DNA of 32,190 bases from a bacterium (lineage in GTDB: Bacteria; Patescibacteriota; Minisyncoccia; Phycocordibacterales; Zambryskibacteraceae): contig JAUSGP010000005.1 in the NCBI GenBank assembly GCA_030674415.1, forward strand, positions 1-32,190, in the 5' to 3' direction. A model generated the notes under the pieces. It had not been told where the DNA came from and ran no database searches. It worked only from the letters and a program-made list of their open reading frames with translations. Numbering within the stretch: position 1 is the first letter of the stretch; the number at the start of each line of letters is the position of its first letter. Shown here piece after piece: positions 884 to 30,085 of this stretch. Both the position numbers and the translations under genes were made by a program.

Positions 884-1624
884 ATGTTTGAAAAATACCT
901 CAAAGACATAGGCTTGAGTGATAAAGAAGCTGCCGTCTATTTAGCACTTTTATCTTTTGATAAAGCTCTCGTAACTGAAATAGCCGACAAGGCGAATATC
1001 AAGCGGCCTACTACTTATGTAATTCTTGAAAGTCTAGCCAAGAAAGGTCTTGTTAGTGAAGCCAATATTGGCAAGAAAACTTTTTACATTGCCGAGCCAC
1101 CTGAAAAGTTGGGGCTATTTGTCGAGAGACAAATTCATTTACTGGAGGAAAACAAAAAGAGTCTGGACATTATTGTTCCTCAACTTAAAGGAATTCAGAG
1201 GGAACAGGGAGAAAAACCAGTTGTTCAATTTTTTGAAGGTAAAGAAGGGGTAATAAGTTCTAGCCATAACATTTTCTCAAAAAAGATCAACGATGAACCT
1301 GTATATATAGTCTACTCAAAAGATACGGTTATGGACATGTTTTCAGAAAAGGAGGCGAAAGAGATGCGCGAACTGCGTATCTCTAGAGGAATCAAGTCAA
1401 AAGCAATTTACATCTCCAAAGAGGGGGAGAAACCTTCCGATGAAACAGGAGACAGAATAAAAATAGATGAAAACAAATATCCTATAAAAAGTGACATTAC
1501 CATCTATGGTGATCAGGTGAGAGTGGCAGTATTTGGGAAAAGGCTATCAGGTATTTTCGTAAAGAATCAAGAATTAGCAGACACTTTAAAAAGTCTCATT
1601 AAATATATTTTTGATCATAAATAA
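884..1624 (+). CDS. TrmB-family transcriptional regulator (wHTH plus C-terminal effector domain)
   Basis: GLSDKEAAVYLALL...IKRPTTYVILESLAKKGLV wHTH, then P-x-V-x-FFEGKEG. TGnTATAAT at 869-877 lies 6 nt before the ATG (leaderless). Confidence 0.88.
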   Translation: MFEKYLKDIGLSDKEAAVYLALLSFDKALVTEIADKANIKRPTTYVILESLAKKGLVSEANIGKKTFYIAEPPEKLGLFVERQIHLLEENKKSLDIIVPQLKGIQREQGEKPVVQFFEGKEGVISSSHNIFSKKINDEPVYIVYSKDTVMDMFSEKEAKEMRELRISRGIKSKAIYISKEGEKPSDETGDRIKIDENKYPIKSDITIYGDQVRVAVFGKRLSGIFVKNQELADTLKSLIKYIFDHK

Positions 1625-1627
1625 GAA

Positions 1628-1663
1628 GTGCCGTGGCAGAGAAGTGAATCTCTACCACGGCAC
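1628..1663. terminator. Strong hairpin between convergent transcripts
   Basis: gtgccgtggcagaga-agtgaa-tctctaccacggcac, directly after the TrmB-like stop codon. Confidence 0.7.
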
Positions 1664-1845
1664 AGGTCGGATCAGGCTGTAAGGGAGGGAGTTATCCTAC
1701 CCGCAACCTCTGAACATAAGCGTCATGCACTTCTTTCGTTCTGGCGATGGCTGATGCCCCCGCCTGGCTTGTGAAGAGAATCTGACTCTTGCTTCGATCC
1801 TACGTCCTACACTGGTTGGCGGCCGGACGCACTCCGCCTCGAGTT

Positions 1846-1857
1846 CTAGTCGTTCAC
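1846..1857 (-). other. SD-led minigene GTG-AAC-GAC-TAG
   Basis: Minus strand reads ggaggataaagaa GTG AAC GAC TAG. Confidence 0.4.
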
Positions 1858-1940
1858 TTCTTTATCCTCCACGATCTGTGACTAGAGATAAACTGGAGGC
1901 CTCACAGGGGCGTTGACAACACCCCTGCTCCCCAGCCGCC

Positions 1941-1952
1941 CTAGTCGTGCAT
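1941..1952 (-). other. SD-led minigene ATG-CAC-GAC-TAG
   Basis: Minus strand reads aaggagggttct ATG CAC GAC TAG, about 40 nt downstream of the predicted start site of the 2000-2028 promoter. Confidence 0.45.
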
Positions 1953-1999
1953 AGAACCCTCCTTTTCGCCGGTAACACACCGGGTACTCGCTAGCAGGT

Positions 2000-2028
2000 A
2001 GTATATACCCACTAGTTTTAAATGTCAA
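2000..2028 (-). promoter_or_regulatory. sigma70-type promoter (leftward)
   Basis: TTGACA-17 nt-TATACT on the minus strand. Confidence 0.8.
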
Positions 2029-2165
2029 GTTAGAATAACAAAATTAGTTAGTTTAAGTGTCAATTTTTATCTAGTTTAGTCAGACTCAATTAAATTCTAT
2101 ATTGTACAAAATGGCTATATTTCTAGCTATTTTAAATATTGTATAAGATGAAATGTCAAAACTGC

Positions 2166-2194
2166 TTGACAAAATTACTCTTTAGGTATATACT
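2166..2194 (+). promoter_or_regulatory. sigma70-type promoter driving the array
   Basis: TTGACA (2166-2171), 17 nt spacer, TATACT (2189-2194), with an AT-rich upstream region. Confidence 0.85.
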
Positions 2195-2200
2195 CTCTTT

Positions 2201-2775
2201 GTACCTTGAAATCAGCACTGGTTAGCGACGGCAACCGTCTAGAAAATTATCACGGACCCGCAGTCAGACTGGCTTCAAAAGTACGGTTTCTATCCTGCGG
2301 AGGAACTACGTTCCTCCGCTCCAGAGGCTCAAAAGCCTGTGGGGCGGGGGTGGGTAAGGTGGCCTTAATACCGCATAGGGAGTCTTCCCCTTCAGCAAGG
2401 GAAGTATGCGGAACCAGACGCGAGCACAGACTCGCGGAGGGTAAACCAAGATGGGACGAGTTTTGTGCCTGAAGCCCCGTGAAGCTGCACGGTGTGCTAC
2501 GTCCCAGCCCGAACCCACTCCCCGCGATGTTCTTTTACAAAAAGTGGCTAACACCACTAGAGGACTGGAGGCAGAAGCCACCAAGATCCTCGCTCGGGCA
2601 GGTTTCAAGCCCGATGGCCAACGCAAGTCGATTCGCCGGGAAAGTGTGAGAGCAATCTCCACTCCCTGCGGCGGCAAGCCTGGTTATCGGAGGCGATAAC
2701 CGCCGGGTGCGTCATCTTCGGCCAAGGCACCGAAGTTGCTCCAAAATCCAGGAGTGTAAAAGCATGGGTAAGAAT
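2201..2775 (+). ncRNA. Long structured leader / candidate ncRNA
   Basis: No convincing ORF. Many stems, e.g. ccgcag/ctgcgg, ggaggaac/gttcctcc, ccgcata/tatgcgg, cgcgag/ctcgcg. Long-range pairing of 2344-2355 with 2513-2525 is followed by GTTCTTT at 2529. Confidence 0.55.
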
Positions 2776-2863
2776 GGGTGAGCGGTAAAATATCGCTCGC
2801 CCTCCCATCAAAGCTTTCAAACTTTTGAAAATTTTGATGGGAAATGATTCCCAAATGTTCTTT
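2776..2863 (+). repeat. Array element R1 (hairpin + long palindrome + overlapping hairpin + GTTCTTT)
   Basis: gggtgagcg..cgctcgccc / tcccatcaaa..tttgatggga / gggaa..ttccc / gttcttt. Confidence 0.9.
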
Positions 2864-2875
2864 GGAGATAAAAAG

Positions 2876-3067
2876 ATGCTGAAAAAGATCGGTTTGTCTG
2901 TCCTGTCGGCGTTTTTCGCTGGCGGAGCAGTTCTCTGGTTCTGGGTTGCCTATACGCAATCCAATCCAGAGATGGCGAGGGCGGCTTTCATGATCGCTCT
3001 CGGCCCCACCACGGCCGCAATCCTCTTTGCCCACAAGGCGAGATGGATCAACAAACCCAATCGTTGA
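2876..3067 (+). CDS. Small two-TM membrane protein (array ORF)
   Basis: SD ggag then ATG 2876 directly after R1; two hydrophobic segments. Confidence 0.75.
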   Translation: MLKKIGLSVLSAFFAGGAVLWFWVAYTQSNPEMARAAFMIALGPTTAAILFAHKARWINKPNR

Positions 3068-3090
3068 TGATTGGGTTCCCACCAAAACAT

Positions 3091-3299
3091 GTCCAAGTCG
3101 GTGCAGCGGCTCGAGGACAACAACACTTCATTTAGGGACCTGCGAAAAGCACTGTAAGTGCTACACGGGCCCAGAAAGCTTGAAGTGTACGGTCTCAAAA
3201 GATCGAGATCACTGGGTTCGAATACGGGTGGCTTAGTGCTCTTCCGAAGGAGGTGGCCACAGCCCGTTATTCCATAGAACCTGGACTGCAACGTTCTTT
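3091..3299 (+). ncRNA. Pseudoknot module copy A
   Basis: Hairpin gtccaagtcg-GTGCAG-cggctcgaggac; complementary CTGCA at 3286, then GTTCTTT at 3293. Confidence 0.65.
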
Positions 3300-3303
3300 A
3301 AAA

Positions 3304-3381
3304 GCCGAACTTCGGTTCGGCTTCCATCAGAGTTCTGAAAACTTTCAGAGTTGTGATGGGGAATGTTCCCCGCTGTTCTTT
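3304..3381 (+). repeat. Array element R2
   Basis: gccgaac-ttcg-gttcggc / ttccatca..tgatgggg / ggggaa..ttcccc / gttcttt. Confidence 0.9.
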
Positions 3382-3393
3382 TCAGGAGATTAT

Positions 3394-3714
3394 ATGCCCA
3401 ATACGTTTGCCGAACTGGTCGTCCGGATCAACAATTCGGACAACGGGACTCTGTTCCAGCAGATCTGCGCAATGTTCGCGCAGGTCAGCACGATGGACGC
3501 TAACAGCGTTATCGTGTGCTGGCAGGCTCTCGACATGGTGAGGAGTCTGGACTCCCGCCACGGCTGCACCATTGCAGTCGACAAGCTCCAGCGCGCCTTG
3601 ATTGCCAGGATGCAAGTCCTGAGCAATCAAGAGTTTCCCCACGCCGTCCTCTACAACAGGATGACGCTGCGGGAAAAATTCAGATCAGTAATCGGTCCCG
3701 GGAGAGGGCTGTGA
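3394..3714 (+). CDS. Hypothetical protein (array ORF)
   Basis: SD aggag then ATG 3394 after R2 (MPNTFAELVV...); 106 aa, no recognised family. Confidence 0.75.
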   Translation: MPNTFAELVVRINNSDNGTLFQQICAMFAQVSTMDANSVIVCWQALDMVRSLDSRHGCTIAVDKLQRALIARMQVLSNQEFPHAVLYNRMTLREKFRSVIGPGRGL

Positions 3715-3723
3715 TCTGGGCGC

Positions 3724-3829
3724 CGTCAGTCTCATTAGGTAACTGACGTTAAAGGGAGTTAAGCTGCCCGTCCGTCGTGTAGGACAAAGTGCTGATGACC
3801 AAGCGTCTGCCGGAGCGTCATCCCGGTGC
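3724..3829 (+). ncRNA. Repeated structured module (TTAA..GTTAAGCTG..GTGCTRATGA) plus CGT-loop hairpin, copy 1
   Basis: Homologous to 6218-6323 with compensatory stem changes (cgtcag/ctgacg vs cgtgag/ctcacg; gtcc/ggac vs gcct/aggc). Confidence 0.6.
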
Positions 3830-3900
3830 TGATTCGCAAGAATCGGCTTTCTATCAGAGAACTGAAAAATCAGTCTTCTGACGGGAAGCTGAAACTTCCC
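3828..3900 (+). repeat. Array element R3 (not directly followed by GTTCTTT)
   Basis: gctgattc-gcaa-gaatcggc / tttctatcaga..tctgacgggaa / gggaag..cttccc. Confidence 0.75.
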
Positions 3901-3910
3901 AAAACCAGAG

Positions 3911-4125
3911 GTCCAAGCCGGTGCAGCGGCTCAAGGACTGAGAGAGTTCAAGTTCACCTTTTAAATCCCAACTCTCTGGACGCTCAGAATCTGCTTTTGG
4001 ACTCGTGGAGCAATGCTCGCGAAATCCTAGCAGGAGCGCAAGGTGAATGGTGAACGTAAGTTCATCACCGAGGGCGGCGTGCCAAGCATGACTTGTCACT
4101 CTGCTCCGGACTGCACACGTTCTTT
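3911..4125 (+). ncRNA. Pseudoknot module copy B
   Basis: gtccaagccg-GTGCAG-cggctcaaggac; CTGCAC at 4111; GTTCTTT at 4119. Confidence 0.65.
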
Positions 4126-4140
4126 CTATAGGAGGTGAGT

Positions 4141-4146
4141 ATGTAG
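4141..4146 (+). other. Start-stop minigene ATG-TAG behind a perfect SD
   Basis: aggaggtgagt ATG TAG, followed by the hairpin gtgccggc..gccggcac. Confidence 0.45.
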
Positions 4147-4194
4147 ACGCATACGTGTGCCGGCAGGTTGAGAGCGAGCCGGCACTGTCATTCA

Positions 4195-4275
4195 GCCGAA
4201 CTTCGGTTCGGCTTCCATCAAAGTTTTTAAACTCTTGAAAATTTTGATGGGACAATTCCGTCCCGAAAGTTCTTT
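4195..4275 (+). repeat. Array element R4
   Basis: gccgaac-ttcg-gttcggc / ttccatcaaa..tttgatggga / gggac..gtccc / gttcttt. Confidence 0.9.
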
Positions 4276-4287
4276 GAGGAGAGTGCT

Positions 4288-4662
4288 ATGCAGAATATCA
4301 TCGTTGGCGTGTCTATCCCGGACAACTACCAGATCGGCTCCAAAACCGAAGGTCGGCGGATGGCGGTGCACAGTTGGGATCTCACGAAGAGTGAGAGACT
4401 GACCACCGCCACCTACGGCAGCCGGCAGCACTCAACAACTTGGTTCGAGGACTGCGAAGTTCTCGACGCCGAGGGGGAGCTACCCGAAGCCCTGCACATT
4501 CTCGTCCGCTGTGGGCGTGAGTGGAATGGGTCGATCGGCGGGTCGTCGTGGTTCGCCAGTGAAGCTTTTGTCTCACGAGAACGTGCTGAAGAGTACGTCG
4601 CCAAGTGGGAGTCGGAGCTCAGCTGGTACTGGATCGTCACAACAAGGAGGTGTATCGAGTGA
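4288..4662 (+). CDS. Hypothetical protein (array ORF)
   Basis: SD gaggag then ATG after R4; 124 aa, Trp-rich C-terminus. Confidence 0.8.
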   Translation: MQNIIVGVSIPDNYQIGSKTEGRRMAVHSWDLTKSERLTTATYGSRQHSTTWFEDCEVLDAEGELPEALHILVRCGREWNGSIGGSSWFASEAFVSRERAEEYVAKWESELSWYWIVTTRRCIE

Positions 4663-4693
4663 GTATAGCGTCTGCCGGAGCGTAATCCCGGTA

Positions 4694-4742
4694 CTGTTCA
4701 GAGATGCGTATCTCTGCTGATGAGCTCAAAAGAGCGAAACAG
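4694..4742 (+). ncRNA. Hammerhead ribozyme, type III
   Basis: CUG-UU / stem I cagagat-gcgt-atctctg / CUGAUGA / stem II gctc-aaaa-gagc / GAAA / CAG. Complete canonical core; predicted cut after 4698 (GUU triplet). Confidence 0.85.
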
Positions 4743-4761
4743 AAATTCTTTGAAATTTGGG

Positions 4762-4802
4762 TCCCCATTAGATAATTCAATTTTTGAATTATCTAATGGG
4801 GA
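4762..4802. repeat. Perfect 19-bp inverted repeat (isolated long-palindrome variant)
   Basis: tccccattagataattcaa-ttt-ttgaattatctaatgggga. Confidence 0.85.
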
Positions 4803-4906
4803 GATGTCACTACGCGAGGACAGGGAACAACAGAGCTAGCGTGCTAACGCCACGTGAATACTGCCCGCTGAAACTCCGTGATGCATGACTCTTCCCAAGT
4901 AACACG

Positions 4907-5084
4907 GTCCAGGCCGGTGCAGCGGCCAGAGGACTAGTGGATTCGCTCGCCTGGATTGGTGGGCGGATGGCGACGAGTTCTCGTCGCAACCAGGTATAAG
5001 ACCGGGGGTTCAAATCGCTTCTGAAGGAGGTGCCCCGACCGGTGATAGAGTACCTGGACTGCACACGTTTTACTTTTGTTCTTT
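4907..5084 (+). ncRNA. Pseudoknot module copy C
   Basis: gtccaggccg-GTGCAG-cggccagaggac; CTGCAC at 5059; GTTCTTT at 5078. Confidence 0.65.
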
Positions 5085-5103
5085 CAAAAAGGAGATTAGA
5101 GAG

Positions 5104-5355
5104 ATGATGATCGGCCTTTCGAACTCGGAAGCCAGGGCTCGTTTGGTTGAGGGTGTGGTGTCCGACGATCGTCGCGACATCATCGGGCCGAACGGCCTGA
5201 AGTACAAGGTCAAGAACTACCTTGTACCCACCCTCATCCCAGGAGAGAAGGTGCGGTTCATTCCGCATCAGCGCTCCTGGAAGAGTCAGACCTATGCCGG
5301 CGAGGTCTGGCTGCAAAACGAGCGCCATCGCCGGCGCAAACCCGATCCTTCGTGA
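5104..5355 (+). CDS. Small hypothetical protein, possibly OB-fold/cold-shock-like (array ORF)
   Basis: SD aaggag after GTTCTTT 5078. The V.G.V...L.PGEKVRF pattern loosely recalls small OB folds. Confidence 0.65.
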   Translation: MMIGLSNSEARARLVEGVVSDDRRDIIGPNGLKYKVKNYLVPTLIPGEKVRFIPHQRSWKSQTYAGEVWLQNERHRRRKPDPS

Positions 5356-5422
5356 TCGGGTTCCCATCAAAGTTTTCAAATCATTGAAGATTTTGATGGG
5401 AAATGATTCCCAAATGTTCTTT
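5340..5422 (+). repeat. Array element R5
   Basis: acccgatc..gatcgggt (overlaps the upstream stop codon) / tcccatcaaa..tttgatggga / gggaa..ttccc / gttcttt. The 3' part is nearly identical to R1. Confidence 0.9.
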
Positions 5423-5440
5423 ACAACAGGAGAAGAGATA

Positions 5441-6205
5441 ATGAGAATTCTGGTAATTGACGACAACCCTCTTCATCATGCAAGTGCTCGGCAGACGCTC
5501 GGTGGCCACGAGGTCACGATCGTCGGCACGTACGACGAGGCGCACAAGCTCCTTGAGGAGCCGAGAGCGCACTGGAAAGCCGTGAATGATGAACTGGAAC
5601 GCCGCGGCTTCAAGAACCCATACGCGCCGAACATGACCGCGGAAGAGCGGGCGGCGGCGCGGGCCGAAGAGAAGCGCATTGAGCAGGAGCTCTGTCCGCC
5701 TCCGCCGTTCGAAGCCGTTCTCTCTGACTTGCTCATGCCAGCAAGCAGGATGACCATGGGTCCGGAAGGAGAGAAGTACATCGGGCAGGAAATGCCGGTG
5801 GGCTTCGCTCTCTCGCTCATGGCGGCTCTTCACGCGAAGTACGTGGCGGTCGTGACGGCAACCAACCATCACAACCATCCGGCCTCCGCCATGCTCGACG
5901 CCTTTGAGTCGAGATGCACCCACGAGCACGATTCGGTAGGCAAGCCCCCTCGTTTTGTCATCAACGGAGCGCGTGTCGGTTTCTACCACGCGCCGATGAC
6001 ATTCGTGGAGGGTACCACCTGTCCGGATTGCGGCGGCAGCGGCGACAAGGAGGTCTGCTACTGCGTCGAGCGCAACGCCGGCGTGGCCAAGCCTGATTGC
6101 GACACCTGCAAAGGTGCCGGCCGTCAGTGTTGGACTTGCCGCAATACCGGCAAGCAGTGGGGCAAGGACTGGGGCAAGGTCCTAACTCATATCACTGCTG
6201 GATAG
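5441..6205 (+). CDS. Receiver-like domain protein with C-terminal CxxCxGxG zinc-finger repeats
   Basis: MRILVIDD start and LSDLLMP phospho-acceptor-like motif; CPDCGGSG, CDTCKGAG, CWTCRNTG. SD aggag then ATG 5441. Confidence 0.8.
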   Translation: MRILVIDDNPLHHASARQTLGGHEVTIVGTYDEAHKLLEEPRAHWKAVNDELERRGFKNPYAPNMTAEERAAARAEEKRIEQELCPPPPFEAVLSDLLMPASRMTMGPEGEKYIGQEMPVGFALSLMAALHAKYVAVVTATNHHNHPASAMLDAFESRCTHEHDSVGKPPRFVINGARVGFYHAPMTFVEGTTCPDCGGSGDKEVCYCVERNAGVAKPDCDTCKGAGRQCWTCRNTGKQWGKDWGKVLTHITAG

Positions 6206-6217
6206 CGGTGATAGCCC

Positions 6218-6323
6218 CGTGAGGCTTATCAGATAACTCACGTTAATGAGCGTTAAGCTGCTCGCCTGTTGTGTAAGGCAAAGTGCTAATGATCTGACGT
6301 CCGCCGGAGCGTCATCCCGGTAC
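6218..6323 (+). ncRNA. Repeated structured module plus CGT-loop hairpin, copy 2
   Basis: Homologous to 3724-3829; followed by GTTCTTT at 6325. Confidence 0.6.
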
Positions 6324-6333
6324 TGTTCTTTCC

Positions 6334-6412
6334 GCCGAACCTCGGTTCGGCTCCTACCAGAGTTCTGAAAAACTTCAGAATTGTGGTGGGACAATCCCGT
6401 CCCCTGTTCTTT
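6334..6412 (+). repeat. Array element R6
   Basis: gccgaac-ctcg-gttcggc / tcctacca..tggtggga / gggac..gtccc / gttcttt. Confidence 0.9.
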
Positions 6413-6421
6413 GAGGAAAAA

Positions 6422-6559
6422 ATGAAGAAGAAAATTCTTCGACTGCCTCGCGCACCACTACCGCGCCAGACTGGTGGATACCACAGTCCGGACAAGGGTC
6501 GCGGTGCCTACAACCGCCAGCATGAAAAACTGGCCACCAAAAAGGAGACGCAGGAATGA
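6422..6559 (+). CDS. 45-aa basic peptide resembling alternative ribosome-rescue factor ArfA
   Basis: Manual translation: MKKKILRLPRAPLPRQTGGYHSPDKGRGAYNRQHEKLATKKETQE. SD gagg; PLxRQ...KGxGxYxR pattern. Below the ORF-track size cut-off. Confidence 0.6.
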   Translation: MKKKILRLPRAPLPRQTGGYHSPDKGRGAYNRQHEKLATKKETQE

Positions 6560-6768
6560 TGATGAAAACGATCCCGCAGCAGGTTCAGCGTCCTCGCGTT
6601 CACCAGCCACTGTTTCTGAAACAGAAGCTCGTCTGCTCGATGTGCAAGGTTAGGGAAGTGATCCCGCCGATTGCCGTCTGCTCGCCCTGCTTACAAATCC
6701 TCAACCAGAGGCGCAAGGAAGCAGAGAAGAGTGGGCGTCCGTGGTGGCGGCGATGGTTCTGGGGCTAA
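6556..6768 (+). CDS. Small zinc-binding protein (CxxC...CxxC) with PWWRRWF tail
   Basis: ATGA overlap with the upstream peptide; SD aaggag; CSMC and CSPC. Confidence 0.7.
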   Translation: MMMKTIPQQVQRPRVHQPLFLKQKLVCSMCKVREVIPPIAVCSPCLQILNQRRKEAEKSGRPWWRRWFWG

Positions 6769-6802
6769 ATCACCCAGCGTCTTCCGGAGCGTCATCCCGG
6801 TA

Positions 6803-6851
6803 CTGTTCAGAGATGCGTATCTCTGCTGACGAAGTCGAAAGACAGAAACAG
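6803..6851 (+). ncRNA. Hammerhead ribozyme, type III (variant stem II)
   Basis: Stem III/I identical to the 4694 copy; CUGACGA; a-gtc-gaaa-gac-a (A.A mismatch at the base of stem II); GAAA-CAG. Confidence 0.7.
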
Positions 6852-6870
6852 ATGTTCTTTAAAAAAAATC

Positions 6871-7130
6871 TGCCTGCTTCCCAGAAAGTTCCTGAAATAT
6901 ATTCGGTACTTTTCTGGGGCGCAGGTATGGACAGATACCTTGGACGCCCGGGAAGCCTCCCACCCAATAACCACCTTAAGTCTGACGAGACAAGAGGAGA
7001 ATGGTTATTTGGTTAAAAATCGACCTTGACTTCGCGCTGGTCGATTAGGCCGCTCTTTGCAGGGATCGGAATAGGCATTCCTAAAGGTCTCGGATGATGC
7101 AACATTTGAGACCACTGTCCACCGTTCTTT
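6871..7130 (+). ncRNA. Long palindrome plus multi-stem non-coding domain
   Basis: tgcctgc..cccagaaa/tttctggg..gcaggta at 6871-6927. tggacag (6928) pairs with ctgtcca (7115), enclosing several hairpins, then GTTCTTT at 7124. Confidence 0.5.
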
Positions 7131-7132
7131 TT

Positions 7133-7214
7133 GCCGAACTCATGTTCGGCTTCCGTAAAAGTTTTTAAATCATTGAAAATTTTTACGGGACAATTTGGTC
7201 CCAACCTGTTCATT
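7133..7214 (+). repeat. Array element R7
   Basis: gccgaac-tcat-gttcggc / ttccgtaaaa..ttttacggga / gggac..gtccc / gttcatt variant. Confidence 0.88.
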
Positions 7215-7239
7215 TCATCATCAGAAGGATGGCTTGGCT

Positions 7240-7599
7240 ATGGAAAAGAAGTTTGTTCTCTCTATTGTCGAATCCGAGAATACGAAGTATGGGTATAACC
7301 CATGTGAGTGCTCGGATTGCACCCACTGGAGTATCAACTTCGAGCCCTCGGCAGACGAGGCGGCGGTGAAGGAGCTTTGCGATTTCGTCAATCGAGTATC
7401 TCACTCGAAAGGCAAAATCAAGGAGCTTGGGGAGAAGGAGTGCAAATTCCTGTCGGCCCTTTTGGGAATCAACATCACAGGAGGTCTTCCTTATGTTGAA
7501 GCTAGATACTGGGAATACCAGGAACCTAGACCCGAACCGCCACCATCATCTGTTTCCGAGGCATTCCGGAGGTTGCACAATCTTAAGCGGGGATCCTAG
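7240..7599 (+). CDS. Hypothetical protein with CxCxxC motif (array ORF)
   Basis: ATG 7240 after R7; PCECSDC. Confidence 0.75.
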   Translation: MEKKFVLSIVESENTKYGYNPCECSDCTHWSINFEPSADEAAVKELCDFVNRVSHSKGKIKELGEKECKFLSALLGINITGGLPYVEARYWEYQEPRPEPPPSSVSEAFRRLHNLKRGS

Positions 7600-7635
7600 T
7601 GAATCCATAAGCTAGGGCGAGACCGCAGTGCATAT

Positions 7636-7725
7636 GGGTGAGCGGCAAAATATCGCTCGCCCTCCCATCAGAGTTTTTCAAAAATTGGAAAGTTCTGATG
7701 GGACAATAGTGTCCCTGTGTTCTTT
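7636..7725 (+). repeat. Array element R8
   Basis: First hairpin nearly identical to R1 / tcccatcaga..tctgatggga / gggaca..tgtccc / gttcttt. Confidence 0.9.
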
Positions 7726-7746
7726 CACAGCCTAAGGAGTGCGTCC

Positions 7747-8199
7747 ATGAAAAGCGTTGAAAAAGAGTTACCAGAAGTCTACGGGATCATCTCCCGCGAC
7801 CACGCCCAAAACGGCAAGAACAGCGCTGTCTCCAAGTACGTGAACGGCGGGTGTACCTCGGATTCAGCAGAGCCAGTACTGGCACTCGTGATGCCCTATT
7901 TCGAGAGCTACGAGATGTCCAGGCTCCTCGCTCTGTATGATGCGGTCTGGAGCGCTCATCAAGTCGGTCTGTTGCACCACATCAATTTCAGCAACAGGAA
8001 GATCAGAGAGGAGGCGCGCAAGTACGGCATCTCTGATGATCGGGTGTGGCCAGCGAAGCTCGTGGACATCGAGGAAATCAGCGTGGGCGACCCGGAGGAT
8101 ATCGGGTCTGCCATTGCGGAGATCCTCAGTGTCCTCATGAAAATGAGAGACATGGAGAGCTTCCTCGAGACTCGCGCCGATCAACTTCTGAGTTCTTAG
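7747..8199 (+). CDS. Hypothetical protein (array ORF)
   Basis: SD taaggag then ATG 7747 (MKSVEKELPE...); 150 aa. Confidence 0.8.
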   Translation: MKSVEKELPEVYGIISRDHAQNGKNSAVSKYVNGGCTSDSAEPVLALVMPYFESYEMSRLLALYDAVWSAHQVGLLHHINFSNRKIREEARKYGISDDRVWPAKLVDIEEISVGDPEDIGSAIAEILSVLMKMRDMESFLETRADQLLSS

Positions 8200-8236
8200 G
8201 AATAAAATACGTCCACTGGCGCGTAAGCCCAGTATC

Positions 8237-8329
8237 GTCCGAGGAAGTCATATATCCTCGGACTTCCTTCAGAGAATTTAACTTCGGTTGAATGTTCTGA
8301 AGGAACGAATGGTTCGTTCCATGTTCTTT
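8237..8329 (+). repeat. Array element R9
   Basis: gtccgagga..tcctcggac / ttccttcaga..tctgaaggaa / ggaacgaa..ttcgttcc / gttcttt. Confidence 0.88.
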
Positions 8330-8343
8330 GAGGAGATAAAAAG

Positions 8344-8733
8344 ATGGAAACAGAAAAGGATTTGTTCGAGCTTGAAATGGAGGAGAAGCGGAAGCAGGAA
8401 CCTCCGATCTCATCCGATAACCCCGCACCCTTCAAACAGCCGTTTCTGGTCATTACGTTCAAAGATCAGAAAATCCACGGCAACGTTGCCGACGGCTGGC
8501 ACGTCGAAGTCGACGGTCAGATTCAGAAGTACTTCGAAGAATTCACGGAGCGCACTCTCGAATGGGCTCCGCCGTTCAATTCAATGCACCGCGCGACGCC
8601 GCTTCTGAGGAGCATCGTCGAGTACTTCGCGAGCCGTGGCATGGAGGTCGCGAGTGTGGCCACGTACGCCGGATCGGCTGGCCCATCACATGTACTGAGG
8701 AACGGGGCGTTCTTCAAGCGCATGAGGTTCTAA
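8344..8733 (+). CDS. Hypothetical protein (array ORF)
   Basis: SD gaggag then ATG; 129 aa. Confidence 0.8.
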   Translation: METEKDLFELEMEEKRKQEPPISSDNPAPFKQPFLVITFKDQKIHGNVADGWHVEVDGQIQKYFEEFTERTLEWAPPFNSMHRATPLLRSIVEYFASRGMEVASVATYAGSAGPSHVLRNGAFFKRMRF

Positions 8734-8754
8734 CGTTCATTAAAAGGAGGTAAT

Positions 8755-8853
8755 ATGCCACCGGATTCAAAAGGGATAGCTGAGCGGCCCGATTCAAGAC
8801 TCAGCCCTAGATCTTCGAGGTTTAGAGAGGTAACGGTACGTGCCTTCACGTGA
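8755..8853 (+). CDS. 32-aa peptide (array ORF)
   Basis: gttcatt, then SD aaggagg, then ATG: MPPDSKGIAERPDSRLSPRSSRFREVTVRAFT. Confidence 0.45.
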   Translation: MPPDSKGIAERPDSRLSPRSSRFREVTVRAFT

Positions 8854-8864
8854 TCCGACCTAAT

Positions 8865-8959
8865 GGGGAAGAACCAAAACTTGGCCAACCTTCCCCTTTC
8901 ATCTAAGGTTTTAGAAAATTGAAATTTTAGATGAGAGAATAGTTCTCTCAATGTTCTTT
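8865..8959 (+). repeat. Array element R10 (most divergent copy)
   Basis: ggggaag..cttcccc / ctttcatctaa..ttagatgagag / tgagagaa..ttctctca / gttcttt. Confidence 0.8.
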
Positions 8960-8974
8960 GAGAAAAGAGGTGTC

Positions 8975-9298
8975 ATGTATCGAAGGATCGAACCTCCAGG
9001 CAGCTCGGCTATGACTCTTGGTTGCGAGGCAATGTGTCAGTCTGGTCTTCCGGATCCCCGCGGTTGGGTTCAAGGCACTCGACCAGTCGAATATTTCTTC
9101 ACCGAATACGGCTGGCGCAAAAGCGGTCATGCAGTTCTGAGCGAAATTCGCTCAAAGGGTGTTATCGCCAAAGTGATCGCAGTGAAGGAAAGGGACCCTC
9201 GTATCCATGTTCGCTACCAGGACAAGTGGCAAGTGATTGTCACCTGGGGATGTCGAAAGGAACATAACTCCAAACGAAGGGTATCAACCCAAAACTAG
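8975..9298 (+). CDS. Hypothetical protein (array ORF)
   Basis: SD gaggtg then ATG 8975 (MYRRIEPP...FFTEYGWRK...). Confidence 0.75.
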   Translation: MYRRIEPPGSSAMTLGCEAMCQSGLPDPRGWVQGTRPVEYFFTEYGWRKSGHAVLSEIRSKGVIAKVIAVKERDPRIHVRYQDKWQVIVTWGCRKEHNSKRRVSTQN

Positions 9299-9307
9299 GA
9301 GTGAGAA

Positions 9308-9508
9308 ATGTTCTTCGATAACCATGAAATTTTGGTCCAGGGTTCCACGCTTGTAGGTATTCAGAATGTAACCTTGCTTTGCAAGATTCACGACGAGCTC
9401 GAGCTCCTAATCATCGACACCCAAGCAATAGTGCCCGGCAAGATCGTTCGTTTAAGATGTCCGTATTGCAGAATGCTTGGCTACCTGATCACTAGCAAAG
9501 CTGAGTAA
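9308..9508 (+). CDS. Small putative zinc-ribbon protein
   Basis: SD aggag; CKIH...CPYC. Confidence 0.6.
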   Translation: MFFDNHEILVQGSTLVGIQNVTLLCKIHDELELLIIDTQAIVPGKIVRLRCPYCRMLGYLITSKAE

Positions 9509-9518
9509 TAACTTGATC

Positions 9519-9598
9519 GGGCAAACTATGTTTGCCCTTCCGTCAGAGAGCTGAAAGATTTCAGAATTCTGACGGGACAATTCCGTCCCGTGTTCTTT
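9519..9598 (+). repeat. Array element R11
   Basis: gggcaaac-tat-gtttgccc / ttccgtcaga..tctgacggga / gggac..gtccc / gttcttt. Confidence 0.9.
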
Positions 9599-9619
9599 GA
9601 GTGAAGAGGAAGTGAAAGA

Positions 9620-9883
9620 ATGGAACAGCATCTGTCGGTTGCTCAAGCCGCAAGCGAAGTAATCCAACACGCCTGCGAGAATTTCTCTACCACGAGCCGA
9701 CAAGACGAACTTTGTGGAGAGATCCTCGCCGCTCTCACGATTGCGGCCAGGGTAGACATCCAGGCAAGGGAGCGCCACGCCTTTGTCTCTAGATGGCAAT
9801 CGCTTCTTCCGGAAGTCCTTCGTGCCAACGGAAGAGCGGTTTTTGCAGTCATCGTGGAGCAGAAGCTAGAAGAACTCCTTTAA
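9620..9883 (+). CDS. Hypothetical protein (array ORF)
   Basis: SD gagga then ATG after R11; 87 aa, predicted helical. Confidence 0.75.
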   Translation: MEQHLSVAQAASEVIQHACENFSTTSRQDELCGEILAALTIAARVDIQARERHAFVSRWQSLLPEVLRANGRAVFAVIVEQKLEELL

Positions 9884-9912
9884 ACAAACGTTCATCGGCA
9901 CGTAAGCCCGGT

Positions 9913-10001
9913 TCCGAGGAAACCATAAATCCTCGGGTTTCCTTAAAAGATTTTCTAACAGGAAATTTTTTAAGGGGACAATTCCGTCCCAACTGTTCTT
10001 T
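9913..10001 (+). repeat. Array element R12
   Basis: tccgagga..tcctcggg (like R9) / tttccttaaaa..ttttaagggga / gggac..gtccc / gttcttt. Confidence 0.88.
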
Positions 10002-10013
10002 GAGGAAAATACG

Positions 10014-10358
10014 ATGAGAATGATTCTGTGTCTTTGTTTTCTGTCCGTTGCTCTCGTCGCGGCGCAAGAACCGGCGCAACAACCGGTATTCCCCGCACTG
10101 ACCGAGCCGGCTTACGTCGGCGTCGGCCAGGTTGATCTCAAGAAGATTTCCTTGAGGTCGGCACGCGACTTGGGCATCATCCGGGCGCAGGGAGCGCTCG
10201 CACGCGCAATCTGCGACCCGAACAACGAGAAGGAGCGCGTCCGCGCTTTCATCGTTGGCAAGCGTCATACCGACGAACTTCGAGTCGGTGACGTGCTCTG
10301 GGTCCGTATCTGGATCCGGAAGGACGAGGTCGAGGTGGACAAAGTCTGCCTCGACTGA
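10014..10358 (+). CDS. Secreted hypothetical protein (signal peptide)
   Basis: MRMILCLCFLSVALVAA-QEP signal peptide; SD gagga. Confidence 0.75.
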   Translation: MRMILCLCFLSVALVAAQEPAQQPVFPALTEPAYVGVGQVDLKKISLRSARDLGIIRAQGALARAICDPNNEKERVRAFIVGKRHTDELRVGDVLWVRIWIRKDEVEVDKVCLD

Positions 10359-17996: not shown

Positions 17997-18734
17997 ATGA
18001 TTCGAGAGCAATTAGAGAAATTGGGATTAAGCACGAAAGAAATTACCTTGTACTTAGCTATCCTTCAAAAAGGCCGAGTTTCCATACCCGAAGTGGCTCA
18101 AATAACAGGTATAAACCGCACTACTGTTTATAGCGTGGCGGAGATATTGGGAGATAAGGGCTATATCATTCAGGACCTCGGTAGTAGGCCCAATATGCTT
18201 ATTGCGGTACCCCCAGAGGAACTGCGTTCTATCGTCCAGAGGCAGAAAAATATTGTGGAAAGTCTTATTCCTGAACTTCATGCAATTTCAAAAGACACGG
18301 GCTATTCCATACCGAAGATCAAATTCGTGCCTGAAGTTGATCTTGAGAGCTATCTCTATTCGGAAGCAGACAGATGGGATAAAAGCATGATGGAGGTAGA
18401 CTCGATACTTTGGAGCGTTCAAGATCCAACCTTTGGACCCAAGTACCAGGAATGGATCAAGTGGTATTACACGAGACCTCATACAAACAATTTTAAATCT
18501 AACGTGATTACAAATGGTGAAGAGCGGGGGATGCCGGAATTTCGTCAGAGAAAAGCGGCAATTTTAGGCGAAGACTTGGACTTCAATTCAGCAGTCTGGG
18601 TGCGCGGACATTACATCGTCATGGTCTCTTACAAAGAGAAGCCGAATTACCTCATTGAGATATACGATAAGCGACTTGCACACAATCTCCGAGAATTGAT
18701 GAGAGGTATTTGGACGCAAAATCAAAAATTGTAG
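17997..18734 (+). CDS. TrmB-family transcriptional regulator (second paralogue)
   Basis: LGLSTKEITLYLAIL...INRTTVYSV wHTH; same architecture as 884-1624. Confidence 0.85.
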   Translation: MIREQLEKLGLSTKEITLYLAILQKGRVSIPEVAQITGINRTTVYSVAEILGDKGYIIQDLGSRPNMLIAVPPEELRSIVQRQKNIVESLIPELHAISKDTGYSIPKIKFVPEVDLESYLYSEADRWDKSMMEVDSILWSVQDPTFGPKYQEWIKWYYTRPHTNNFKSNVITNGEERGMPEFRQRKAAILGEDLDFNSAVWVRGHYIVMVSYKEKPNYLIEIYDKRLAHNLRELMRGIWTQNQKL

Positions 18735-29704: not shown

Positions 29705-30085
29705 ATGAATGAACTCGACATTCAGATAAAAAAGATTGAAAAATTCCAAGACTTAGATGCTTGGAAAGAGGGTCACAAGCTTGTCATAGAGGTATACAAA
29801 ATTTCTCGTCTATTCCCCAAAGAAGAATCCTTCGGCCTTACTAGCCAGATCCGGCGCGCGGTAGTCTCAGTTACTTCTAATATTGCAGAGGGATTTGGCA
29901 GGCAATCATATAAAGACAAGAATAACTTTTACCAAATGGCTTTTGGCTCTATAATTGAAGTGCGGAATCAATTGCTTATTTCAAGAGATGTTGGTTACAT
30001 AAATCAGTCAAATTTTGAGACTCTTGATAACCAGGCAATAAAAGTTGAGAAAATCTGCAGAGGACTAATTAAAAAAATCTCGTGA
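29705..30085 (+). CDS. Four helix bundle protein (23S rRNA IVP family)
   Basis: FQDLDAW...FPKEESFGLTSQIRRAVVSVTSNIAEG. Confidence 0.93.
   Translation: MNELDIQIKKIEKFQDLDAWKEGHKLVIEVYKISRLFPKEESFGLTSQIRRAVVSVTSNIAEGFGRQSYKDKNNFYQMAFGSIIEVRNQLLISRDVGYINQSNFETLDNQAIKVEKICRGLIKKIS

What the first reader, a model, noticed from the sequence alone, without database searches (positions are those of the whole stretch)
2776..10001. Twelve copies of a three-part element with a conserved overlapping (mutually exclusive) hairpin and extensive covariation
Seen at 2776, 3304, 3828, 4195, 5340, 6334, 7133, 7636, 8237, 8865, 9519 and 9913. Each copy has a GC hairpin, then immediately a ~40-nt imperfect palindrome with an AT-rich centre, then a short hairpin whose 5' arm reuses the last 4-6 nt of the long palindrome. 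That overlap reads tccc..ggga..tccc, ttcc..ggaa..ttcc in R9, and tttca..tgagag..ctctca in R10. Then come GTTCTTT, an SD and ATG (R3 lacks these; R7 has GTTCATT). Sequence changes while pairing is kept (ccatca/tgatgg, ccgtaa/ttacgg, ccttca/tgaagg, ccgtca/tgacgg, cctacca/tggtggg), often via G.T pairs on the + strand, which favours a single-stranded fold over a dsDNA operator. Inference: these are RNase III-type processing stems (as between T7 early genes), a translational switch, or folded ssDNA recombination sites.
Basis: partly seen in the sequence, partly recalled or inferred. Interest (0 to 1): 0.88.

Follow-up and report, generated by a model that had tools for sequence, protein, structure and literature searches.

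The report
Hairpin-plus-boxA punctuation of a cassette operon
The twelve repeats are real, conserved RNA hairpin units that sit between small genes of one long operon in an ultra-small groundwater bacterium, and each ends in the same short signal that the cell's ribosomal RNA operon uses to keep RNA polymerase from stopping, with hammerhead ribozymes taking their place at some junctions.

Summary
All 12 copies exist at the stated coordinates. Stem P2 covaries strongly, and G.U pairs outnumber A.C 100 to 8, so the sense (+) strand folds.

New findings:
1. The element is a family found in Parcubacteria: 13 of 101 related genomes, always in same-strand arrays.
2. The terminal GTTCTTT marks every module junction (17 exact copies in 7.5 kb). 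It is identical to the boxA-like heptamer behind a hairpin in this genome's own rRNA leader, and it matches published boxA variants. P3 plus GTTCTTT therefore looks like an rrn-type nut site (boxB-like hairpin, then boxA).
3. Type III hammerhead ribozymes occupy the same slot at other junctions (2 in the window, 15 distinct overall), each followed two bases later by the boxA-like heptamer.
4. NusB (fused to NUDIX) and RNase III are adjacent genes. Rho was not found.

Best reading (0.62): these are RNA-level intercistronic punctuation units. P1 and P2 act as processing and stability stems, with P2 a candidate RNase III site. P3 plus boxA reloads Nus-factor antitermination after each cut.

An integron-like ssDNA site, a dsDNA operator and a new ribozyme are less likely. 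No cleavage or binding was tested.

The parts
2165..2194 (+). Array promoter: TTGACA, 17-nt spacer, TATACT
   Evidence: Read from the sequence. The same promoter type stands before the leaders of G016, G021 and G036.
2195..2528 (+). About 330-nt structured leader RNA. A long-range G-rich/C-rich helix closes it a few nt before the first boxA-like heptamer.
   Evidence: Alignment of 4 genomes: 54 predicted pairs, 15 of them with compensatory changes.
2529..2535 (+). First boxA-like heptamer GTTCTTT, at the end of the leader
   Evidence: Conserved at the end of the leader in G016, G021 and G036.
2776..2863 (+). R1: P1, P2, P3 and GTTCTTT, then SD and ATG at 2876
3304..3381 (+). R2: an ORF-less unit lying between two GTTCTTT copies (3293 and 3375)
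3828..3890 (+). R3: P1, P2 and P3 with no heptamer. It runs into an 'A' RNA module that ends in GTTCTTT at 4119.
   Evidence: (39.4 bits)
4195..4275 (+). R4
   Evidence: (86.4 bits)
5340..5422 (+). R5
6334..6412 (+). R6: an ORF-less unit lying between GTTCTTT at 6325 and at 6406
   Evidence: A homologous unit is present in G016.
7133..7214 (+). R7: preceded by GTTCTTT at 7124 and ending in the variant GTTCATT
7636..7725 (+). R8
8237..8329 (+). R9: has a longer P3. Its P1 and P2 travel with the upstream ORF; its P3 and heptamer travel with the downstream ORF in relatives.
8865..8959 (+). R10
9519..9598 (+). R11
9913..10001 (+). R12: last unit, in front of the conserved last cassette ORF (10014-10358)
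4694..4742 (+). Hammerhead type III ribozyme 1. Predicted cut between 4698 and 4699. The heptamer variant ATTCTTT follows at 4745-4751.
   Evidence: Rfam Hammerhead_3, 24.5 bits, E 0.12.
6803..6851 (+). Hammerhead type III ribozyme 2. Predicted cut between 6807 and 6808. The first pair of stem II is A.A, so it may be weak. GTTCTTT follows at 6854.
3091..3299 (+). 'A' RNA module, copy 1 of 3 (the others are 3911-4125 and 4907-5084). The loop of its 5' hairpin is complementary to 6 nt that lie 2 nt before its terminal GTTCTTT.
   Evidence: Homologues are present in G016, G021 and G036. The structure is inferred by eye and was not tested.
6325..6331 (+). One of the further junction heptamers not attached to an R unit. 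The full set is 3293, 4119, 5078, 6325, 6854 and 7124 (GTTCTTT) and 8735 (GTTCATT).

Best explanation
The elements work as RNA, on the sense strand of one long operon. That operon starts at the promoter at 2165-2194 and carries small ORFs and non-coding RNA modules. Each element is a composite intercistronic punctuation unit.

(a) The terminal (U)GUUCUUU plus its purine-rich tail is a boxA. This is the linear RNA signal that loads NusB-S10 onto RNA polymerase and makes it resistant to termination and pausing. With hairpin P3 lying 2-4 nt upstream, it forms an rrn-type nut-like site (boxB-like hairpin, then boxA).

(b) P1 and P2 are processing and stability stems. P2, an 18-20 bp duplex with a conserved block of pairs 8-12 bp from its loop, is the likely target of RNase III. 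After a cut, P1 is left as a 3' protective hairpin on the upstream RNA. The freed GGGA pairs with its 3' partner, so P3 forms as a 5' hairpin on the downstream RNA. This would explain why both mutually exclusive pairings are conserved.

(c) A cut severs the earlier boxA from the transcribing polymerase, so a fresh boxA follows each cut. This is the logic of rRNA operons, which carry boxA in the leader and again in the spacer behind the RNase III-released 16S. At other junctions a hammerhead ribozyme makes the cut instead.

What is shown: the fold, its strand, its conservation, identity of the heptamer with the rRNA-leader motif, the hammerheads, and the presence of NusB and RNase III.

What is inferred: NusB-S10 binding, antitermination, RNase III cleavage and the refolding.

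Sub-claims: boxA identity about 0.8; RNase III cleavage in P2 about 0.35-0.4.
For: Fold on the sense strand.

The heptamer is a junction mark for all module types (leader, R, A, hammerhead, simple hairpins), not only for R:
- 17 exact copies lie on the + strand in 7.5 kb.
- 68 distinct junctions from 12 stretches of arrays give T at -1 in 44 of 68 and a purine-rich tail.
- 34 of 39 distinct R copies are followed by it.
- 11 of 15 hammerheads have GTTC[AT]TT exactly 2 nt after stem III. Three others have ATTCTTT, GATCTTT or GCTCTTT, and one has none.

Identity with the rRNA leader:
- G000 contig C2:4147 reads promoter, 10-bp hairpin, 3 nt, then GTTCTTTGAAAATTGAATA.
- This stretch aligns with the G021:C60 leader, which lies about 200 nt upstream of the 16S gene.
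- The leader motif is found in 24 of 37 genomes of the genus, with heptamers such as GTTCTTT, GTACTTT, GTTCATT, GTCCTTT, GTTCCTT and GCACTTT.

Literature (passages read):
- E. coli boxA is UGCUCUUUAACA. The B. subtilis rrn boxA-like AUGAUCUUUGAAA lies immediately downstream of a small hairpin and binds NusB. boxA also stands before suhB and CRISPR operons (PMC13753749).
- Taylorella boxA is TGTTCTTTAACA (PMC2666751).
- rrn nut-like sites occur in the leader and the spacer in the order boxB-boxA. RNase III cuts co-transcriptionally (PMC8632103).

Factors present:
- NusB is found in 5 of 5 genomes. In G016 it is a NusB-NUDIX fusion directly followed by RNase III.
- RNase III is found in 5 of 5 genomes.

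Other promoters are followed by the heptamer: L042, L018 and L020.

Hammerheads are real: 98.2% of cells paired, stems I and II covary, the core is invariant, and 0 of 500 shuffles score as high. Eight Rfam hits in relatives have E from 7e-6 to 4e-4.

A review states that bacterial hammerheads and twisters have been suggested to process polycistronic transcripts (PMC6765202).
Against: - No RNA data exist for this organism, so no RNA end, cleavage or read-through was observed.
- NusB-S10 binding was not tested, and S10 was not searched for.
- The tail after the heptamer is only loosely conserved and overlaps the purine-rich SD.
- Seventeen or more boxA sites in one operon is unprecedented to my knowledge.
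- Rho was not found in 5 of 5 genomes, so the classical anti-Rho role cannot be the reason here.
- P2 is 18-20 bp, at the short end for RNase III. Its strongly conserved base pairs, including an invariant G.U, could equally mark a sequence-specific RNA-binding protein.
- ORF-less R units and the variable cassette content also fit a DNA-level cassette model.
Confidence: 0.62

Rival explanations
1. Integron-like cassette platform. The hairpins fold in single-stranded DNA, and GTTCTTT is the crossover core at which cassettes are inserted, excised and shuffled by a site-specific (tyrosine or HUH) recombinase.
For: - The architecture is integron-like: a promoter, then promoterless same-strand cassettes separated by structured repeats.
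- ORF-less units lie between two heptamers.
- Cassette content and order differ between genomes that share the same flanks.
- G016 has a perfect 816-bp tandem duplication of three modules.
- Several homology blocks between arrays end within 0-3 nt of a heptamer.
- The array has 52% GC against 47% for the rest of the window.
- All 17 cassette ORFs lack Pfam families above the curated cut-off.
- A published motif (DUF1874) in consecutive intergenic regions was discussed as a possible atypical attC (PMC5737381).
Against: - The heptamer is explained by the rRNA-leader boxA.
- It also follows ordinary promoters at single genes.
- No inverse partner exists: AAAGAAC occurs on the + strand only at 19709 and 28754, outside the array.
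- The fold favours the sense strand (100 G.U against 8 A.C).
- No tyrosine recombinase was found in G000, which is 80% complete.
- The one near the arrays in G016 and G022 scores as XerC/D-like and falls below the integron-integrase cut-off (132 against 265 bits).
- IS200-like Y1 genes have their own, different flanking hairpins and are absent from array-bearing G016.
- One mapped breakpoint lies between P2 and P3, not at the heptamer. This fits homologous recombination between repeats.
- Contigs of the source run show no cassette-skipping joints, but contigs hide rare variants.
Confidence: 0.1
2. RNA operator for a sequence-specific RNA-binding protein. P2, with its conserved C-A-R-A-G / U-U-Y-U-G block and invariant G.U, binds a protein that sets translation or stability of the neighbouring cistrons. 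The P2/P3 alternative would be a translational switch. No endonucleolytic cut is involved.
For: - Conserved base identities lie inside a helix: 37-39 of 39 copies at five pairs.
- The two alternative pairings are near-isoenergetic.
- The element lies 9-21 nt upstream of start codons.
Against: - No candidate protein was identified.
- ORF-less units and units followed by non-coding modules have nothing to translate.
- The SD itself is not sequestered in the predicted folds.
- Equivalence of position with hammerheads points to cutting.
Confidence: 0.13
3. A new self-cleaving ribozyme class. R (or the A or leader modules) cuts itself near the heptamer, as the hammerheads do at other junctions.
For: - R shares its genomic slot with hammerheads. 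That criterion has led to new ribozyme classes before (PMC5737381 passages).
- R is not in Rfam.
Against: - Almost all conserved nucleotides of R lie in regular helices.
- The linker between P3 and the heptamer varies in length (2-4 nt) and in sequence.
- The heptamer is accounted for as boxA.
- P1 is variable in sequence, so no conserved tertiary partner is visible.
Confidence: 0.05
4. Double-stranded DNA operators. The P2 palindromes are binding sites for the adjacent TrmB-like regulator.
For: - P2 is palindromic.
- A TrmB-like gene (884-1624) stands directly upstream of the array.
- Its orthologue (E <= 1e-40) is found in only 7 of 37 genomes of the genus. Six of the seven carry an array: G000, G036, G014, G021 and G016 with R arrays, and G004 with a related array. 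The seventh, G020, was not inspected.
Against: - Both arms change together while pairing is kept, in 11-12 of the P2 pairs. Operator half-sites would keep their sequence.
- A conserved G.T asymmetry and 100 G.U against 8 A.C show strand-specific pairing.
- The regulator more plausibly acts at the divergent promoter region (about 2000-2200).
Confidence: 0.04

Closest known systems
rrn-type nut-like sites (boxB hairpin, then boxA) of ribosomal RNA operons, bound by NusB-S10 (Nus-factor antitermination complex)
   Same: - A linear U-rich motif 2-4 nt behind a hairpin on the nascent sense RNA.
- The heptamer is identical to that of the organism's own rRNA leader and to a published boxA variant.
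- The motif is repeated after a processing site, as in the rRNA leader and spacer.
   Different: - There are 17 or more copies in one operon, which carries protein-coding cassettes and small RNAs rather than rRNA.
- It is joined to two further conserved hairpins (P1, P2).
- No boxC was recognised.
- The host appears to lack Rho.
- Binding is untested.
boxA before non-rRNA operons (suhB, CRISPR arrays in gammaproteobacteria)
   Same: boxA is used to carry polymerase through long, poorly translated, repeat-rich transcripts (passage in PMC13753749).
   Different: Those cases have a single leader boxA that counters Rho. Here boxA recurs at every junction, and no Rho was found.
RNase III processing stems between phage T7 early genes and flanking rRNAs
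   Same: Intercistronic hairpins on a polycistronic transcript would leave a 3' hairpin upstream and a structured 5' end downstream. RNase III is encoded in these genomes.
   Different: - P2 is a perfect 18-20 bp hairpin with conserved base identities.
- It overlaps a second hairpin.
- Cleavage is not shown.
- The comparison with T7 rests on recall.
Bacterial hammerhead and twister ribozymes in polycistronic mRNAs
   Same: Type III hammerheads lie between cistrons in these very arrays. Processing of polycistronic transcripts has been suggested for such ribozymes (PMC6765202).
   Different: R itself has no hammerhead core. Here the ribozymes are systematically coupled to a boxA 2 nt downstream and to an upstream hairpin with a conserved loop.
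Integron attC sites, and the DUF1874 motif found in consecutive intergenic regions
   Same: Structured repeats lie between consecutive small, mostly unannotated ORFs on one strand. No integrase is adjacent, as was noted for DUF1874.
   Different: - There is no inverse core partner.
- The fold is on the sense strand.
- The heptamer equals boxA.
- Neither motif matched in Rfam.

Membership tests
boxA / rrn-type nut-like antitermination site | Sequence fits the boxA consensus of the organism's own rRNA leader and of published boxA sites | tested here: met
   - GTTCTTT plus a purine tail equals the motif at G000 C2:4147 in the rRNA leader.
- The leader motif is present in 24 of 37 genomes of the genus, with the same heptamer variants.
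- Published sites: UGCUCUUUAACA, AUGAUCUUUGAAA and TGTTCTTTAACA.
boxA / rrn-type nut-like antitermination site | Lies on the transcribed strand, downstream of a promoter, preceded by a hairpin (boxB position) | tested here: met
   - All 17 copies are on the + strand behind the promoter at 2165-2194.
- A helix end lies 2-5 nt upstream in the R, hammerhead, A and leader modules.
- In the rRNA leader the hairpin lies 3 nt upstream.
boxA / rrn-type nut-like antitermination site | The cognate factors NusB and S10 are encoded | tested here: inconclusive
   The NusB domain is found in 5 of 5 genomes, as a NusB-NUDIX fusion in G016. NusA is in the window. S10 was not searched for.
boxA / rrn-type nut-like antitermination site | Binds NusB-S10 and confers read-through | not testable with these tools
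   This needs EMSA, NMR and reporter assays.
RNase III processing stem | Regular RNA duplex of about two helical turns on the transcript | tested here: inconclusive
   P2 has 14 core plus 4 outer pairs and is 92-94% paired. That makes 18-20 bp, at the lower end. The length criterion is recalled.
RNase III processing stem | RNase III is present, and cleavage products have ends inside the stem | tested here: inconclusive
   The enzyme, with its dsRBD, is present in 5 of 5 genomes. Ends could not be tested because no RNA run was listed.
Integron attC | Core site paired with an inverse core site at the other end of the element | tested here: not met
   The reverse complement of the heptamer is absent from all 12 elements. 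Its only + strand copies are at 19709 and 28754. The attC consensus itself is recalled.
Integron attC | Integron-type tyrosine integrase | tested here: not met
   - PF00589 is absent in G000.
- In relatives there is only a XerC/D-like protein, scoring 132 bits on the integron integrase model against a cut-off of 265.
Hammerhead ribozyme type III (neighbouring modules, not R) | Catalytic core, three stems and an NUH cleavage triplet | tested here: met
   - The core is invariant in 15 of 15 sequences.
- 98.2% of cells are paired, and stems I and II covary.
- The triplet is GUC in 8, GUU in 6 and GUA in 1.
- Rfam scores of 24.5-42.3 bits stay under the gathering score of 48.5, probably because stem III has only 4 bp.
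Any Rfam 15 family (for R itself) | Match to a curated covariance model | tested here: not met
   There were no matches at the gathering score in the window. At E <= 1 there was only a chance-level microRNA hit on the opposite strand of R1.
dsDNA operator of a TrmB-type regulator | Half-sites keep their sequence, with no need for pairing | tested here: not met
   Compensatory changes occur in 11-12 P2 pairs. There are 100 G.U cells against 8 A.C.

The most novel reading that the evidence does not exclude
These Parcubacteria apply an rRNA-operon-like maturation pathway to a whole operon of mRNAs and small RNAs. Every module is released by a cut (hammerhead, RNase III or a still unknown activity of the R, A or leader RNAs) and is handed on by a fresh boxA. 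The unusual NusB-NUDIX fusion, encoded next to RNase III, would use boxA as a guide to act on nearby RNA 5' ends. In this reading R is a new functional RNA class (a processing-coupled nut site). The array would be a natural system that reveals what bacterial hammerheads are for.
Probability: 0.2. Interest if true: 0.85.

Novelty: new variant of a known kind. Interest (0 to 1): 0.66.

Why it matters
- It would be the first case I could find of boxA-type antitermination signals used serially, once per cistron, outside rRNA operons. The host is an ultra-small, apparently Rho-less bacterium.
- It ties bacterial hammerhead ribozymes, whose function is an open question (PMC6765202), to a definite and testable role. 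The role is to cut a polycistronic transcript at junctions where polymerase is immediately re-armed.
- It adds several conserved RNA motifs that are not in Rfam: R, the leader, the A module and others.
- It adds a NusB-NUDIX fusion next to RNase III, which suggests a link between transcription elongation control and RNA end processing.

Tried and rejected
Known RNA families
- Rfam at the gathering score gave nothing. ARAGORN found no tRNA or tmRNA.
- From memory I compared R and the 'E' motif with pistol, hatchet and twister ribozymes. Rfam at E <= 1 gave no such hit, so I dropped the idea.

Other readings of the heptamer
- Cold-shock protein site: no cold-shock domain in 5 of 5 genomes. Rejected.
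- ECF-type promoter: the spacing to P3 varies by 13-15 nt and other module types have no -35-like box. This was judged by eye. Rejected.
- Terminator U-tract: it lies 2-5 nt from weak stems. Not favoured.
- Start codon (ATG made with the preceding AT): only part of the junctions have AT at -2/-1. Rejected.
- Pairing of the heptamer with P2 or P3 arms: possible, but any U-rich run would pair. No weight given.

Recombinases
- Tyrosine.
- Serine: 5 of 5 genomes, elsewhere in the genomes.
- Reverse transcriptase: 3 of 5.
- Y1 HUH: 4 of 5, but with their own hairpins and absent from G016.
- Y2: 0 of 5, but the control was silent, so this is uninformative.

Sequencing runs
- No RNA holder was listed. 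Only the probable source DNA run holds the stretch.
- Laying contigs showed full cover and one small joint inside the first A module (3115-3241), with no joint at a heptamer. Loose ends belong to related organisms.

Collection scans
- Genome contigs gave 8 loci. Four were confirmed by the model and two were judged chance (L038 no model match, L040 only 19.6 bits). The other two are the G016 and G036 contigs already in hand.
- Metagenome contigs gave 6 loci. L047 and L051 are chance hits inside a permease gene. L046 is a true array. L048-L050 were not inspected closely.

Cassette proteins
- Of 17 cassette ORFs, 16 have no Pfam match at E <= 0.05 and none has a match above the curated cut-off.
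- The 254-aa ORF is a divergent CheY-like receiver with 322 relatives, some of them labelled by their sources as candidate-phyla (Patescibacteria-group) bacteria.

Literature
- hammerhead + candidate phyla radiation: 3 unrelated papers.
- hammerhead ribozyme + Patescibacteria: 0.
- Parcubacteria + ribozyme: 3 unrelated.
- The last search listed only CPR papers without boxA, so it does not show absence.
- PMC4509812 is not held.
- Supplements are closed. The B. subtilis leader alignment (Fig. S1 of PMC13753749) was not seen.

Rows dropped
- For one search I used the 40 best of 57 model matches, minus one reverse-strand echo (window 2766-2845).
- In one search two duplicate junctions of the G016 tandem repeat were merged (70 to 68). 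One counted site (window 5256) lies inside an ORF and is probably chance.

Full report
CONTEXT

The window is a whole 32-kb contig of a 485-kb genome that is 80% complete. It carries cellular genes: ClpP, NusA, pyrophosphatase, UvrD, KsgA and two TrmB-like regulators. Related contigs in the public collection carry titles such as Candidatus Zambryskibacteria, Wildermuthbacteria and Minisyncoccia. The only run that holds the sequence is a groundwater metagenome. The organism is therefore a Parcubacteria-type member of the candidate phyla radiation.

THE OBSERVATION

All twelve elements are present at the stated coordinates. Each has three parts: a GC-rich hairpin P1 of variable sequence, a long AT-centred hairpin P2, and a short hairpin P3 whose 5' arm reuses the last four bases of the extended P2.

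- Pair counts on the 12 copies give 91-94% pairing, 12-13 pairs with changes on both sides, and no shuffle of 500 as good. Sliding the partner by one to three columns drops pairing to 36-66%.
- A covariance model recovers the 12 copies and finds more in relatives.
- Over 39 distinct copies, P2 holds 100 G.U-type cells against 8 A.C-type. One G.U pair is kept in 37 of 39 copies.
- The + strand folds better than its complement in 3 of 3 copies tested. The fold therefore belongs to the sense strand.
- The shared GGGA can pair with the 5' partner in 155 of 156 cells and with the 3' partner in 176 of 184. Predicted folds pick either form. The 'mutually exclusive' feature is real.
- P1 abuts P2 in 39 of 39 copies although its sequence differs widely.

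THE ARRAY

The element occurs nowhere else in this genome. It does occur in 13 of 101 related genomes, G000 included. That is 9 of the 36 other genomes of the genus and 3 genomes of other families of the order.

The larger arrays read through (G016, G021, G036, and G004 with a related array that lacks the long leader) share one plan:

1. A TrmB-like gene.
2. A terminator.
3. A roughly 370-nt non-coding RNA on the opposite strand, with its own promoter.
4. A strong promoter.
5. A structured leader of about 290-390 nt.
6. Small ORFs and non-coding modules, all on one strand.

Cassette content and order differ between genomes. None of the 17 cassette ORFs of the window has a Pfam family above the curated cut-off. 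One is a divergent CheY-like receiver with 322 relatives, some of them labelled by their sources as candidate-phyla bacteria.

HAMMERHEADS

A weak Rfam hit led to two type III hammerheads in the window, at 4694-4742 and 6803-6851, and to 15 distinct ones overall.

- The catalytic core is invariant. Stems I and II covary, and 98.2% of cells pair.
- Eight score E 7e-6 to 4e-4 in Rfam, below the gathering score. The likely reason is that stem III has only four pairs.
- Each hammerhead sits where an R unit sits elsewhere: behind the 3' untranslated region of an ORF, after a hairpin with a conserved loop, and two bases before the heptamer.

THE HEPTAMER

GTTCTTT is not a private part of R. Seventeen exact copies lie on the + strand between 2529 and 10001. 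They end the leader, the R units, the three 'A' modules, the hammerheads and simple hairpins.

- Sixty-eight distinct junctions show T at -1 in 44 cases and a purine-rich tail.
- Observed variants are GTTCATT, ATTCTTT, GATCTTT and GCTCTTT.
- In other genomes the heptamer follows ordinary promoters, either at once or after a short structured leader.

The key result concerns the rRNA leader. Outside the array, contig C2 of this genome carries a promoter, a 10-bp hairpin, three bases and then GTTCTTTGAAAATTGAATA. That stretch aligns with a stretch of G021 that lies about 200 nt upstream of the 16S gene. The motif is in 24 of 37 genomes of the genus, with heptamers such as GTTCTTT, GTACTTT, GTTCATT and GTCCTTT.

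This is the position and form of boxA.

- Published boxA sequences read UGCUCUUUAACA (E. coli), AUGAUCUUUGAAA (B. subtilis; directly behind a small hairpin and bound by NusB) and TGTTCTTTAACA (Taylorella) (passages read).
- rrn nut-like sites stand in the leader and again in the spacer, in the order boxB then boxA. RNase III cuts the transcript while it is being made (passages).
- NusB is encoded in 5 of 5 genomes examined. In G016 it is fused to a NUDIX domain and is directly followed by RNase III. The same neighbourhood is seen by coordinates in G000, G021 and G036.
- Rho was not found in 5 of 5 genomes.

MECHANISM PROPOSED

The operon is transcribed as one long, highly structured RNA by a polymerase that is modified through boxA.

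- Each R unit combines processing and stability stems (P1, P2) with a nut-like site (P3 plus boxA).
- A cut in P2 would leave P1 at the 3' end of the upstream RNA. It would also free GGGA to form P3 at the 5' end of the downstream RNA. RNase III is the obvious candidate for the cut, but this is untested.
- The cut separates the earlier boxA from the polymerase, so the next boxA re-arms it.
- Hammerheads do the same job at other junctions. Their cut leaves an upstream hairpin at the 3' end and stem I at the new 5' end.
- This is the logic of rRNA operons, applied here to mRNAs and small RNAs.

Shown: structure, strand, conservation, motif identity, presence of the ribozymes and of the factors. 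Inferred: binding, read-through, RNase III cleavage and refolding.

RIVALS

The integron-like reading has real attractions: the architecture, ORF-less units between two heptamers, a perfect 816-bp tandem duplication in G016, and homology blocks that end at heptamers. The case against it is stronger.

- The heptamer has no inverse partner.
- No integron-type integrase is present.
- The fold is on the sense strand.
- One breakpoint could be placed inside R. A distinctive P3 plus heptamer travels with the downstream ORF (window 8344-8733, G036, L046). The matching P1 plus P2 travels with the upstream ORF (window 7747-8199, G021). Shuffling is thus better explained by homologous recombination between the repeated RNA motifs.

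A dsDNA operator is contradicted by the compensatory changes and the G.T asymmetry. The TrmB-like orthologue does co-occur with arrays: it is found in 7 of 37 genomes of the genus, and six of the seven carry an array. It probably regulates the promoter.

A new ribozyme is unlikely for R, because nearly all conserved bases lie in regular helices and the linker to the heptamer varies. A protein-binding RNA operator cannot be excluded.

NOVELTY

- R is not in Rfam.
- My literature searches found nothing on hammerheads or such arrays in these bacteria. They are limited to the open-access library, and the last search was uninformative.
- boxA, RNase III stems and hammerheads are known kinds. Their serial coupling at every junction of a cassette operon is a new variant, in a Rho-less ultra-small bacterium with a NusB-NUDIX fusion.

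Noticed in passing
window 1628-2000 (- strand), promoter at about 2000-2028: A non-coding RNA of about 370 nt is transcribed divergently from the array. It has its own TTGACA/TATACT promoter and a terminator hairpin (1628-1663) shared with the TrmB-like gene. It is conserved in G016, G021, G036 and G004 and has no Rfam match.
   Followed up: partly
window 3091-3299, 3911-4125, 4907-5084: Three copies of an 'A' RNA module. The hexaloop of its 5' hairpin is complementary to six bases just before its terminal boxA, which suggests a long-range pseudoknot. Some copies hold a strong SD-like run without a start codon. Homologues are present in G016, G021 and G036.
   Followed up: partly
window 3810-3826, 4675-4691, 6304-6320, 6784-6800, 8216-8232: A small hairpin with a conserved 9-nt loop and covarying stem precedes both hammerheads and several R units. 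It may be the 3'-end hairpin of the upstream RNA.
   Followed up: partly
window about 3727-3800 and 6215-6290; about 7589-7635: Two further conserved 3'-UTR motifs recur in G016, G021, G014 and a misbinned contig (L041). One is about 75 nt and contains GTTAA.G...GTTAAGCTGC. The other starts GGGGATCC and has a covarying hairpin. Neither is in Rfam.
   Followed up: no
window 4770-4810 and 6880-6925: Long perfect AT-centred hairpins (about 19 bp), unrelated in sequence to P2, follow the hammerhead-boxA pairs. They are further candidate dsRNA processing sites.
   Followed up: no
window 4126-4145: A boxA, a strong SD and then ATG directly followed by TAG form a start-stop mini-ORF inside an otherwise non-coding unit.
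   Followed up: no
L056 982-1917 (-) and 276-980 (-) (G016:C3); G000:C27 2005-3361: NusB is fused to a NUDIX hydrolase domain (311 aa) and is followed after one base by RNase III. An L32 gene lies upstream. By coordinates, the same nusB-rnc neighbourhood is present in G000, G021 and G036.
   Followed up: partly
L029 (G016:C8), reverse strand 6240-7871: A perfect tandem duplication of an 816-bp block of three modules: an A module, an ORF-less R unit, and two ORFs with a hammerhead.
   Followed up: partly
L034 (G021:C32) about 530-1208: A roughly 700-nt GC-rich, apparently non-coding stretch lies between a hammerhead and a boxA. It may be a large structured RNA cassette.
   Followed up: no
whole genomes G000, G004, G016, G021, G036: No Rho RNA-binding domain and no cold-shock domain was found in any of the five genomes, four of which are at least 90% complete. 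IS200-like Y1 genes are present in 2-7 copies in four of the five genomes searched for them (G000, G021, G022, G036; none in G016).
   Followed up: partly
window 884-1624 and 17997-18734: There are two TrmB-like regulators. The orthologue of the first is restricted to 7 of 37 genomes of the genus, six of which were seen to carry an array.
   Followed up: partly
window 29705-30085 and 30150-30593: A 23S-rRNA-intervening-sequence/bAvd-like protein and a PrgI-family protein lie near the contig end. A reverse transcriptase is encoded elsewhere in the genome (C28).
   Followed up: no
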